Positions 30,900 to 33,800 of a DNA stretch of 64,000 bases are shown here, one piece after another. Source of the DNA: Balanoglossus misakiensis (taxonomy: Eukaryota; Animalia; Hemichordata); assembly GCA_040954595.2 (NCBI GenBank), contig CM082587.2:1703000-1766999 (forward strand). Reading direction: 5' to 3'. The position numbers and the translations under genes were made by a program. Within the stretch, counting starts at the first letter, position 1; every line of letters starts with the position of its first letter. The notes under the pieces were generated by a model. That model did no database searches. It had not been told where the DNA came from and worked only from the letters and a program-made list of their open reading frames with translations.

Positions 30900-33800
30900 C
30901 TAGAGGAGCTCCGTGTGCTCGAATCTCCGCACAAGCATTCGCAGCGTGCCCTCAGACCGCTTCACCAGTTCAACAGCTTCTGCGTACGTCAAGGACTCCC
31001 GTCGTCGTCCATCCACTTCGAGTACCACGTCTCCAATCTAGCGATAAAGAGGAAATATCAAGGAAATTACATGGGAAAGTTTTTCGTCTATCAGAATCCT
31101 TTATTCTCCATTGAATGAAGACAAGAACAGACAGCAGAAAGTCCAGACTATTGCTCTCGACAATACAGTTGTGGTGTGGCCAGTGAGACCATCAAAATAA
31201 GGGAGGATACAAAAGGATGCATCAGACTCAGGGAGACGGGCAGAGACAAACAGACATGCGGACGTAATATAGTTGCTGATATGATTTCCTACCTTCAGTT
31301 TTCCGTTTTGACTAGCTGGCGTGTTCGGTACAACGTCGTCCACCCATAACGGCATTCCCGCGATGTTCTGCTTGACGCCTCCGAGGGAGAACCCGAAACC
31401 ATTCGGGCCACGATTGAGTTCCGCCACGTGCAGGCCTGTACCCAAGTGAGTTGTTTCAAGGGCTTCTATCGGCAGCTGCTGTGTATAAAATCATAGGGTA
31501 AGTACAACCATGTTTATATGCTGTTGACGAGAAAAACTGCGCAATTTTAGCTGTGTGCATCTCTTGTAAATGAGCAAACTACCCATGTATATGACCAAAA
31601 GTACTATTCATTCGACAACAGCGCATCAAATCGCTCACACACTCTCACCCCCCCCCCCCCGGCTTAATCATTTTATCCTTACCTGTGGGACCTGCTTATC
31701 AACGGACACGCCATTTTCTCCTTCACTCTGTTTTGAAACCGGTGACCAAGTATCTCCGTCTTGTAAATGTACTTCGTCGATCTCAAGACCCTCGTTGGTA
31801 TTCCCCAACGAGTGCAGGAAACTCGCGTTTTGTTTCGGTATTCTCTTCTTTCGGGGCGAGTGGACCCTTTCACCGACCATCATCTTGTCATCCTCCGCCT
31901 GTGAATAACTGGCGCCCGCAACATGTCCGTTTGCACCATACCCGTTCCCCGTAAGGGGCGATGATGGAGGAAGGGTTATTCTTCTGTACCTGTAATTATA
32001 CATGGCAACGGAAATCAGATGTCGGGGAAGGAATACGTGATTTTTTTTCACCTTGGATGAAAAAATGAAAACATTGAAGGCATTGACAAAGAACTTTCAA
32101 GCTACTTCAGCTGTGAAGATTGGTTAAAGTGTATTCTTACATTGAATTTGCTCCGAAGAGGAAGTTGCTGTCTGTTGCAGCAGGTACCAGGGTGCTGTGA
32201 CCATTCTGAAGCAAGAATGAAAAAGACAATTACGTTAATTTAACACGGTTGTGTATACCACATTCCCAAGCGTCAACAAGGGTCTGCAACATGCCTGAAC
32301 TTCATGGCTCTCACCAGAGAAACACAAATCAAACGTCAATTACCTGATATCCGTTGAGAGCCGGATATCCGGAATCGAACAAAATGGTGGGTCTGGACAG
32401 TCGTTCCTCATGGTTGTCTTTGGCCATTTTTCGAAGATTGGACGCCTCCGCATTGCCAGTCTTGTCCACCATTTTATTCAGCAAACTGTATTTGTTTAGC
32501 AGCAAGTTGTATGGCTCGTCAAATTCTACCAACTTCCCTTCGTTGAAAAGCTAAATTTACAATTATAAATAAAAACGGGGGAAAGGTTGAAGCAAAGACA
32601 GAGTGAACGCTAATTGACAATTTCGAAGAATTCAAAAAACTACCTCCGCCAGAAATACATACCATGATTCTATCAGCGTCCATCACTGTGTGTAATCGAT
32701 GGGCAACTGTTAACACTGTGCAGTCTCTGAATTTCTTACGAATCGTTTCCTGAATCAGTTCATCCGTTCTGCGAGGGCGATAAACGAAGCGAACGTTAAT
32801 GTCGTGAAAGTATTTTTGACTATTTCAAGTGAAACACACGAACCAATCTGAATCACAGTGAATGATACATCTAGTTTAATCAATGCGGAGCTGGAATGTC
32901 ACAGAAACATTTTGTGTATATGACGTCAACCAATCCATCCATACATATAGGATTATTCTACATGAAATCTTACCTTGGATCGACATTGGCTGTAGCCTCA
33001 TCCAGTATCAAGATTTTATTGCTTCTCAGAATGGCTCTCGCTAGACAAACCAACTGTCTCTGGCCAACGCTGAGGTTTGATCCAGATTCTCCAACTGACG
33101 AGTCCAAACCATGTGGCATGTCGGATATAGCTGAATGCAGTTGAACCTGGTGGGAGTCAATGAACGATTGGTCAGGTTAATCTCAGAACGTGGCATGAAT
33201 CGATTTTTATCACAAATATGGTGGGTTCTGGATTTTTGCAATACAGCAGCTCAGTTCTGTGTGCATTGACAGAATAGTATTGTGGCATCTACTGACCTCA
33301 TTCAGAACTGTCCAGAGTTCATTGTCGTCAAATTGATTGAAGGGATCTAGATTGCTGCGGACGCTGGCAGTGAACAGAACGGGATCCTGAAATAAAAAGC
33401 AGAAAATGTAACTGGTGTTATCACTAACACATCCTTTTAAATAACCATAACACATTAGAGGTGTCATTGGTCTGTGGACATGCCAATAACAACCAAATGG
33501 CCAATACCAAACGTTTTTGATCGTACCATCTGTAAAGATTAAGAAATCAATATTTTATGTAGAGCTAATGAACATACCTGTGGAATGATAGAAATATTCT
33601 TTCGAAGGTCGTGGAGTCCCAGAGTTTTCACATCAATGTTGTCAATTCGTAATTCGCCGTCGGGTTCAGCCATTCGGAACAGGCATGTTATTAGTGAACT
33701 CTTTCCAGCCCCAGTCCTGCCTACAATGCCAATCTGTGTGTGGGAAACAGACGATGGCGTTAATTTGTGATTTTCTGTTCTTAAATACTGTGATACAATC

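What the first reader, a model, noticed from the sequence alone, without database searches (positions are those of the whole stretch)
30900..32544. ABCC4-like transporter carrying its own C-terminal PDZ domain
Seen: after NBD2 the frame continues through phase-compatible exons (..[29 protein letters not shown]..) into a complete PDZ domain: [65 protein letters not shown], ending FEHTELL*. Established: vertebrate ABCC4 and CFTR end in a PDZ-binding motif (ETAL, DTRL) and depend on separate PDZ scaffolds (NHERF1, PDZK1). Inference: a transporter-scaffold fusion that could self-cluster or recruit partners, possibly the pathway enzymes encoded next door.
Basis: partly seen in the sequence, partly recalled or inferred. 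Interest (0 to 1): 0.75.

Follow-up and report, generated by a model that had tools for sequence, protein, structure and literature searches.

The report
Acorn-worm exporter with built-in PDZ scaffold
An MRP4-type membrane export pump carries its own protein-docking (PDZ) domain on a long tail, an arrangement shared with predicted proteins of two acorn worms and likely borrowed from the scaffold protein MAGI; it would let the pump anchor or cluster itself, and the gene sits beside polyketide-making genes whose product it may export.

Summary
A 31-exon minus-strand gene (41147-30900) reads as one 1,608-aa frame: an ABCC4/MRP4-type transporter, a 170-aa linker, a complete PDZ domain and a 7-residue tail. 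The tail splice sites score like those of the core gene. RefSeq models of two acorn worms (Ptychodera flava, Glandiceps talaboti) have the same architecture, and P. flava shares the linker. The other 19 of 21 hits lack the PDZ. No RNA run was listed, so the junctions were not seen directly.

The PDZ is closest to the last PDZ of MAGI, but MAGI's helix-B His (38 of 38) is Tyr here. That predicts D/E-X-hydrophobic ligands, which fits the protein's own E-L-L end; Glandiceps (Cys, T-I-L) does not fit. The substrate pocket is remodelled in all three proteins. The neighbouring PKS and FMO do not end in PDZ motifs, so direct recruitment of them is unsupported. The four-gene block (exporter, PKS, FMO, ACLY) is a candidate animal pathway cluster, with weak co-expression support from another acorn worm. 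My paper searches found no description, and the scan's earlier findings held nothing similar. Verdict: new variant of a known family.

The parts
30900..41147 (-). ABCC4/MRP4-like gene with C-terminal PDZ; 31 coding exons, 1,608 aa (ATG 41147, stop 30902-30900)
   Evidence: Exon model with one open frame and all GT-AG introns; 79% identical over 1,332 columns to P. flava XP_070582140.1
32344..41147 (-). Transporter core, exons 1-27: TMD1-NBD1-TMD2-NBD2, no TMD0; Walker A, signature, Walker B and H-loop motifs present in both NBDs
   Evidence: Translation; the orthologue P0001 matches solved MRP4 at 1,324 bits against at most 811.5 for any other ABCC
32141..32205 (-). Linker exon 28 (65 nt, ends in phase 2)
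   Evidence: 15 of 22 residues identical to P0001; splice scores
31683..31989 (-). Linker exon 29 (307 nt), polar and likely disordered
   Evidence: 44 of 102 residues identical to P0001; linker 74% disorder-promoting residues; low pLDDT and no secondary structure in the part of the P0001 linker that was modelled
31293..31478 (-). Exon 30: first half of the PDZ, with the R-x-x-x-G-F-G-F carboxylate loop at 31412-31389
   Evidence: Pfam PF00595 positions 4-44; PDB PDZ hits
30900..31037 (-). Exon 31: second half of the PDZ, Tyr1581 at alphaB1 (30986-30984), 7-residue tail ending E-L-L, stop
   Evidence: Pfam positions 45-80; alignment to MAGI last PDZs
32329..32343 (-). Possible short C-terminus if intron 27 were retained (V-I-D-V, stop); no AATAAA/ATTAAA follows it before 31105
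30493..30592 (-). Candidate poly(A) signals (ATTAAA 30592; AATAAA 30530, 30498), about 310-400 nt after the stop
48613..56331 (+). Neighbour: type I PKS, KS-AT-DH-MT-ER-KR-ACP, no thioesterase seen; start exon not located; divergent from the transporter
   Evidence: Pfam; catalytic motifs and C-terminus; PDB hits rank PKSs above mammalian FAS
58855..61310 (-). Neighbour: flavin-containing monooxygenase with C-terminal hydrophobic anchor
   Evidence: Pfam FMO-like on five exon-bearing frames; ATG
62734..64000 (+). Neighbour: 5' part of ATP-citrate lyase, head-to-head with the FMO (1.4 kb); runs off the window

Best explanation
One gene is predicted to encode an ABCC4/MRP4-type ATP-driven exporter whose tail carries a complete PDZ domain, likely copied from the last PDZ of MAGI, that likely serves as a built-in scaffold to anchor or cluster the pump at the membrane. 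Shown: the continuous frame, the PDZ, the same architecture in two other acorn worms, the His-to-Tyr change at alphaB1 and the remodelled substrate pocket. Inferred, step 1: the fusion arose once, in an ABCC4 paralogue of enteropneust hemichordates, before Ptychodera and Glandiceps split. Inferred, step 2: the PDZ hangs on a flexible 110-170 aa tether and, with Tyr at alphaB1, prefers D/E-X-hydrophobic ends. Its own E-L-L tail is only 7 residues past the last strand, so binding would be to a neighbouring pump molecule (head-to-tail clusters) or to an unknown acidic-motif partner, not in cis. Inferred, step 3: the pump exports a lineage-specific anionic metabolite, most likely the oxidised polyketide made by the adjacent ACLY, PKS and FMO. 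Odds: fused gene about 0.93; MAGI origin about 0.75; PDZ still binds peptides about 0.8; own tail is a ligand about 0.35; cargo comes from the neighbouring PKS about 0.4.
For: Single frame with tail splice sites as good as core ones; no poly(A) hexamer between the end of NBD2 and 31105. Coding-like codon use in the linker exons. 2 of 21 homologue hits carry Pfam PDZ; they are the two best hits and the only hemichordate ones, confirmed by hmmscan at E 7.6e-12 and 5.5e-13, while 0 of 4 amphioxus or fish proteins scanned have it. Linker identity to P. flava is 15/22 and 44/102, PDZ 60/84. The three proteins form one group, SH-aLRT 100, on a 0.93 stem (quick tree, 17 rows). A profile of the three PDZs scores last PDZs of MAGI-type proteins up to 81.9 bits and any non-terminal PDZ at most 55.9, over 314 domains in 60 proteins. 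FastTree puts them with MAGI last PDZs plus one long-branch domain, support 91, unstarred. The model has PDZ pLDDT 90-97 and overlays MAGI1 PDZ6 (2r4h) at 1.9 A and 37% identity (the alignment held MAGI rows). alphaB1 is His in 38 of 38 MAGI last PDZs, and Tyr, Tyr, Cys in the fusions; Tyr goes with D/E at -2 (PMC4704001). Of 19 MRP4 pocket residues named in two structure papers, the window protein keeps 10 and changes 9, including F324S, L363G, L367R and W995Y. In Schizocardium a PKS-like gene, Acly-1, Fmo5-10 and Mrp4-11 all mark larval gut cluster 9.
Against: The two supporting proteins are automated gene models, one flagged low quality. Glandiceps has Cys at alphaB1 and a class I-type T-I-L end, so the Tyr/Glu match is not general and rests on two related species. 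The PDZ is only 35-45% identical to MAGI last PDZs, the PDZ tree has few columns, and the comparison set was selected by the query and is not a census. The PKS and FMO ends are not PDZ ligands. The Schizocardium genes were matched by name only; that animal has many Mrp4 and Fmo paralogues, the authors read Fas-3 as ordinary fatty-acid synthesis, and the table was cut at about cluster 12 of 56. Synteny in other genomes could not be tested.
Confidence: 0.55

Rival explanations
1. The fusion is real, but the PDZ binds other membrane or junction proteins rather than its own tail, and the tail serves as an ordinary ligand for host scaffolds; the pump is a general epithelial exporter with no tie to the PKS.
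For: Glandiceps keeps a class I-type end (T-I-L) like MRP4's ETAL while its alphaB1 is Cys. Gut cells would co-express ACLY and a synthase for plain lipogenesis. Other neighbours in the window (ZIP transporter, TPR, TIR, B-box) are unrelated.
Against: The Tyr/Glu pairing in two species; the shared pocket remodelling points to a special cargo; four pathway-compatible genes lie in a row as two head-to-head pairs.
Confidence: 0.3
2. The gene makes two tails: a short form ending V-I-D-V by retention of intron 27, and the long PDZ form, so the PDZ is an optional module.
For: Read-through of the exon 27 donor ends after four residues in a class II-like motif, close to the usual MRP4 tail length.
Against: The donor is strong (8.5 bits, 99th percentile) and no poly(A) hexamer follows before 31105. 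The two P. flava accessions listed share the one PDZ-bearing sequence; a short isoform was not among the hits, though that search was shallow.
Confidence: 0.08
3. The PDZ exons belong to a separate small gene starting at the Met-Met in exon 29, and gene predictors merged it with the transporter.
For: In-frame ATGs exist at model residues 1399, 1435 and 1436; all three fused proteins are predictions.
Against: Exon 28 and the start of exon 29, upstream of the Met-Met, are conserved as protein in P. flava, which has no Met at these places. Only about 450 nt separate the exon 27 donor from the Met-Met, too little for a 3' end plus a promoter, and no poly(A) signal lies there. The same join is predicted in three genomes.
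Confidence: 0.03
4. The PDZ is a relic or structural appendage that no longer binds peptides.
For: The otherwise invariant MAGI His is lost and replaced differently in two lineages; identity to Glandiceps is 33/84, far below the 183/236 of NBD2.
Against: The carboxylate loop R-x-x-x-G-F-G-F is intact in 3 of 3; the PDZ is much better conserved than the linker beside it (60/84 against 44/102); the model is a confident complete fold.
Confidence: 0.04

Closest known systems
Vertebrate ABCC4/MRP4 (and amphioxus ABCC4-like proteins)
   Same: Short-ABCC layout without TMD0, intact NBD motifs, best PDB match by about 500 bits; basic pocket residues H152, R362, R946 and Q994 kept.
   Different: MRP4 has a 27-residue unstructured tail ending ETAL that binds separate PDZ adaptors (bioRxiv 10.1101/2022.12.22.521501). 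Here the tail is about 260 aa and holds its own PDZ, and TM5, TM6, TM9 and TM12 pocket residues are changed in all three acorn-worm proteins.
RefSeq models XP_070582140.1/XP_070582142.1 (Ptychodera flava) and XP_077986963.1 (Glandiceps talaboti)
   Same: Same ABCC4-linker-PDZ-7-residue-tail architecture; one clade with the window protein.
   Different: Named only 'ABCC4-like' by automated annotation; the Glandiceps linker is shorter (about 107 aa), with Cys at alphaB1 and a T-I-L end.
Last (sixth) PDZ of MAGI scaffolds
   Same: Best-scoring PDZ family, nearest group in the tree, 1.9 A overlay on MAGI1 2r4h.
   Different: alphaB1 His is replaced by Tyr or Cys; the Arg of the strand-B I-R-G-G motif is lost; single domain attached to a transporter.
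Class III PDZ (nNOS type)
   Same: Tyr at alphaB1, predicted preference for D/E at -2 (PMC4704001).
   Different: Not nNOS-related by sequence; binding not measured.
Sea-urchin pigment-cell module (Pks1, Fmo3, Sult, ABCG11)
   Same: PKS and FMO used together, with an ABC transporter in the same cells (PMC7455242 and PMC10396339). The KS-AT-DH-MT-ER-KR-ACP layout resembles Pks1 as recalled; this was not tested.
   Different: The urchin transporter reported is ABCG-type; the passages read say nothing on genomic clustering, ACLY or a PDZ-bearing ABCC4.

Membership tests
ABCC4/MRP4 subfamily | TMD1-NBD1-TMD2-NBD2 without TMD0 | tested here: met
   Model and P0001 align to MRP4 from residue 10; 2 ABC_membrane and 2 ABC_tran domains
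ABCC4/MRP4 subfamily | Closer to MRP4 than to CFTR, MRP1 or ABCC5 | tested here: met
   P0001: 1,324 bits against 765, 752 and 798; the TM12 exon of the window hits MRP4 first
ABCC4/MRP4 subfamily | Catalytic NBD motifs intact | tested here: met
   Walker A, LSxGQ, Walker B (DD in NBD1, DE in NBD2) and H-loops read in the translation
ABCC4/MRP4 subfamily | Prostaglandin/steroid-sulfate pocket residues | tested here: not met
   10 of 19 kept; F324, L363, L367, Q849, M990, G991, M992, W995 and R998 changed. This lowers 'same substrates', not descent.
ABCC4/MRP4 subfamily | Short tail ending in a class I PDZ-binding motif | tested here: not met
   Long PDZ-bearing tail ending E-L-L
ABCC4/MRP4 subfamily | ATP-dependent organic anion efflux | not testable with these tools
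   Needs a transport assay
PDZ domain | Full-length profile match and fold | tested here: met
   Pfam 4-80 of 81; model pLDDT 90-97 over the domain and PDZ-only top structural hits
PDZ domain | R/K-x-x-x-G-phi-G-phi carboxylate loop | tested here: met
   Present in 3 of 3
MAGI last PDZ (class I) | Nearest relative by profile score and tree | tested here: inconclusive
   81.9 against 55.9 bits; support 91, unstarred, 87 columns, query-selected set
MAGI last PDZ (class I) | His at alphaB1 | tested here: not met
   Tyr, Tyr, Cys against His in 38 of 38
Class III PDZ | Tyr at alphaB1 | tested here: met
   Window and P. flava yes, Glandiceps no
Class III PDZ | Binds D/E-X-hydrophobic C-termini | not testable with these tools
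   Needs a binding assay
Biosynthetic gene cluster | Adjacent, non-homologous genes for precursor supply, core enzyme, tailoring and export | tested here: met
   ACLY, PKS, FMO and ABCC4 contiguous over 30900-64000; none of 18 open frames scanned between transporter and PKS passed a Pfam cut-off
Biosynthetic gene cluster | Co-expression of the clustered genes | tested here: inconclusive
   Same four gene kinds mark one gut cluster in another species; orthology unknown
Biosynthetic gene cluster | Conserved linkage across species and one shared product | not testable with these tools
   No eukaryotic genome context was available

The most novel reading that the evidence does not exclude
Acorn worms carry an operon-like animal biosynthetic cluster: a dedicated ATP-citrate lyase feeds a polyketide synthase, an FMO tailors the product, and a specialised ABCC4 exports it. 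That exporter has absorbed a MAGI PDZ domain, retuned from class I to class III so that it binds its own tail and polymerises head-to-tail in the membrane with no separate scaffold.
Probability: 0.2. Interest if true: 0.8.

Novelty: new variant of a known kind. Interest (0 to 1): 0.5.

Why it matters
MRP4 and CFTR trafficking is understood as transporter tail plus separate PDZ adaptor. A natural fusion kept across two acorn-worm lineages is an evolutionary test of what permanent PDZ tethering does to an ABCC pump, and the His-to-Tyr change beside a Glu-bearing tail gives a sharp, cheap binding experiment. If the PKS-FMO-ACLY-exporter block proves to be one pathway, it would be a rare microbial-style gene cluster in an animal and a direct lead to an uncharacterised hemichordate polyketide. 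The architecture already sits unremarked in automated RefSeq models, and function is untested, which limits the score.

Tried and rejected
RNA evidence: no RNA holder was listed for 30800-37500, so no reads were laid; this is no evidence either way. No whole genome is held, so synteny and paralogues were not checked. Homologue searches with the first PDZ exon (0 of 30 candidates) and exon 27 (0 of 10) were blank although orthologues exist, which shows how shallow that search is. The absence of Saccoglossus and echinoderm hits therefore says nothing on range. The HMMER search of representatives with the PDZ exon gave 68 hits, mostly multi-PDZ scaffolds plus some low-complexity noise; 0 of 68 had an ABC domain. 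ESM Atlas gave only generic PDZ clusters and one 0.75 hit. The single-sequence fold was uninformative (pLDDT 38). NCBIfam has no MRP4 model among its hits; MRP and CFTR models scored below cut-off. Rejected: direct C-terminal recruitment of the PKS or FMO; a second ABCC or PDZ copy elsewhere in the window (no tblastn hit outside the gene); a pigment-cell assignment (the Schizocardium pigment marker is another FMO, and pigment cluster 51 lay beyond the cut in the marker table). Seven look-ups in the scan's earlier findings gave nothing relevant.

Full report
Observation. The window is intron-rich animal DNA of about 41% GC. On the minus strand I traced a 31-exon gene from ATG 41147 to TAG 30902-30900. 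The joined exons give 4,827 nt, 1,608 aa and a single stop, and every intron is GT-AG. Pfam finds PDZ positions 4-44 on exon 30 and 45-80 on exon 31, and PDB searches with each exon return almost only PDZ domains.

Is it one gene? Matrices trained on the 26 core introns score the four tail donors 8.5, 6.9, 10.4 and 6.1 bits and the acceptors 10.8, 7.9, 8.6 and 4.0, all inside the core ranges. Tail introns are 138-255 nt; core introns are 88-291 nt apart from a 1,066-nt first intron. Codon use favours the predicted frame in 5 of 5 tail segments and is negative in the 4 introns. Retaining intron 27 would end the protein in V-I-D-V, but no AATAAA or ATTAAA follows until 31105, inside the PDZ-splitting intron; three such signals lie 310-400 nt past the real stop. 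Independent support comes from other genomes. A search with a TMD2 exon gave 21 hits among 22 candidates. The two best, RefSeq models from Ptychodera flava (1,598 aa) and Glandiceps talaboti (1,544 aa, flagged low quality), carry a PDZ; the other 19 (1 amphioxus, 17 fish, 1 springtail) do not. P. flava matches the window protein in the core (NBD2 205/236), the PDZ (60/84) and the linker exons (15/22, 44/102), so the linker is conserved coding sequence. A quick tree of the model plus 16 of the 33 ABCC proteins then held (near-duplicates and fragments left out) groups the three at SH-aLRT 100 on a long stem, with the window protein sister to P. flava. The window is therefore most likely from an enteropneust hemichordate (inference). 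The junctions were not seen in RNA. The range of the fusion beyond these three species is open.

The transporter. P0001 matches solved MRP4 at 1,324 bits, against at most 811.5 for any other ABCC. Both NBDs are intact. Two MRP4 structure papers (PMC10202912 and bioRxiv 10.1101/2022.12.22.521501; passages read) name the pocket residues. Mapping 19 of them by hand through the alignments, the window protein keeps H152, F156, Q160, F211, R362, F368, D842, Q845, R946 and Q994. It changes F324 to Ser, L363 to Gly, L367 to Arg, Q849 to Met, M990-G991-M992 to Thr-Ala-Ala, W995 to Tyr and R998 to Lys. The rewritten TM5, TM6, TM9 and TM12 segments are nearly the same in all three acorn-worm proteins and unlike the amphioxus and fish rows shown. 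I infer a conserved, different and probably anionic cargo.

The PDZ. A search of 1.84 billion representatives with exon 30 gave 68 hits, none with an ABC domain. A profile of the three fused PDZs scored 314 domains in 60 of them. The 25 best were all last domains of their proteins, sharing the MAGI-type strand-B motif; Pfam (WW, guanylate kinase) and source names identify those I checked as MAGI. The best score was 81.9 bits, against 55.9 for any non-terminal PDZ. FastTree on 110 of 159 de-duplicated domains plus the three fusions placed them in a group with MAGI last PDZs and one long-branch domain, support 91, with only 87 columns. A model of the P. flava tail, built with MAGI rows for depth, has pLDDT 90-97 over the domain, an unstructured linker, and seven residues after the last strand. 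It overlays MAGI1 PDZ6 at 1.9 A; this is partly circular. The carboxylate loop is intact in 3 of 3. alphaB1 is His in 38 of 38 MAGI last PDZs but Tyr in the window and P. flava and Cys in Glandiceps. PMC4704001 (passages) states that His goes with S/T at -2 and Tyr with D/E at -2. The tails end T-E-L-L, V-E-L-L and T-T-I-L. So the two Tyr proteins carry a matching class III motif on their own end, and Glandiceps does not show a canonical pair. From general PDZ geometry (recalled, not computed) seven residues cannot reach the domain's own groove, so any self-binding would be between molecules.

The neighbours. From 30900 to the window's end lie the transporter (-), a KS-AT-DH-MT-ER-KR-ACP polyketide synthase (+), an FMO (-) and an ATP-citrate lyase (+), as two head-to-head pairs about 7.5 kb and 1.4 kb apart. 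The PKS ends L-M-E-N and the FMO P-H-S-H, so neither is a canonical PDZ ligand. In the Schizocardium californicum atlas (PMC13554239: passages; supplement 3 whole; searched rows of supplements 4 and 5), larval gut cluster 9 is marked by Fas-3 (annotated as like a highly reducing PKS; log fold change 1.33), Acly-1 (0.90), Fmo5-10 (0.63) and Mrp4-11 (0.50). Fas-3 and Acly-1 agree in sign in 9 of 9 clusters where both are listed, while Acly-2 behaves differently. Against this: orthology is unknown, each cluster lists over a thousand genes, the families are large, the authors read Fas-3 as lipogenic, and the stored table stops near cluster 12 of 56; the largest supplementary PDF could not be read. 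This is a lead, not a test.

Mechanism. Most likely, a duplicated MAGI PDZ was added to the 3' end of one ABCC4 paralogue in an enteropneust ancestor. The pump now carries, on a flexible tether, the adaptor that MRP4 normally has to recruit through ETAL, and uses it to cluster or anchor at a membrane domain while exporting a special metabolite, plausibly the product of the adjacent PKS and FMO. Architecture, conservation and residue changes are shown; origin, ligand, clustering and cargo are inferred.

Novelty. Eight searches of the held library (listings only, unless named above) returned no paper describing an ABCC with its own PDZ or a hemichordate PKS-FMO-ACLY-ABCC cluster. The main texts of two hemichordate genome papers (PMC4729200, PMC11175523; term look-ups) do not contain 'PDZ', 'ABC' or 'polyketide'; their supplements were not read and may bear on this. 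Passages of PMC7455242, PMC10951248 and PMC10396339 gave only the pigment-cell background. Subscription journals are mostly not covered. Verdict: a real, conserved, apparently undescribed architecture within a known family; interest 0.5.

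Noticed in passing
window 30900-64000: ABCC4, PKS, FMO and ATP-citrate lyase lie in a row as two head-to-head pairs; candidate animal biosynthetic gene cluster. The same four gene kinds co-mark a larval gut cluster in Schizocardium (orthology unknown).
   Followed up: partly
window 48991-55854 (+): The PKS is almost intronless (one exon of about 6.9 kb), unlike its intron-dense neighbours; it has a methyltransferase domain and no thioesterase was seen.
   Followed up: partly
window 62734-64000 (+): The ACLY N-terminus looks divergent (first exon only 25.7 bits on the Pfam ATP-grasp model); Schizocardium has two ACLY genes, so this may be a specialised paralogue.
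   Followed up: partly
window 38264-38015, 35156-34794, 34309-34209 (-): TM5/TM6, TM9 and TM12 of the transporter are rewritten relative to MRP4 yet nearly identical among the three acorn-worm proteins.
   Followed up: yes
window 29301-29386 (+), 26163-26248 (-), 22520-22608 (+), partial 22144-22180: Dispersed copies of a tRNA-like sequence (83 of 86 identical for the first two; 88% for the third). ARAGORN could not assign the anticodon; by eye an intron-bearing tRNA-Arg(TCT), from recall.
   Followed up: partly
window 26310-28526 (+): Reverse-transcriptase (LINE-like) frame with an internal stop, between two of the tRNA-like copies.
   Followed up: no
window 23638-25706 (+): A TIR-domain exon followed by a long exon with two B-boxes and a coiled coil; possibly one gene joining TIR and B-box domains.
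   Followed up: no
window 3635-14045 (+): A TPR-repeat gene with a long acidic N-terminal exon, and a His-rich ZIP zinc transporter (ZIP7-like, name recalled).
   Followed up: no
window 31478-31476 (-): Tandem NAGNAG acceptor at exon 30 could include or skip one Gln.
   Followed up: no
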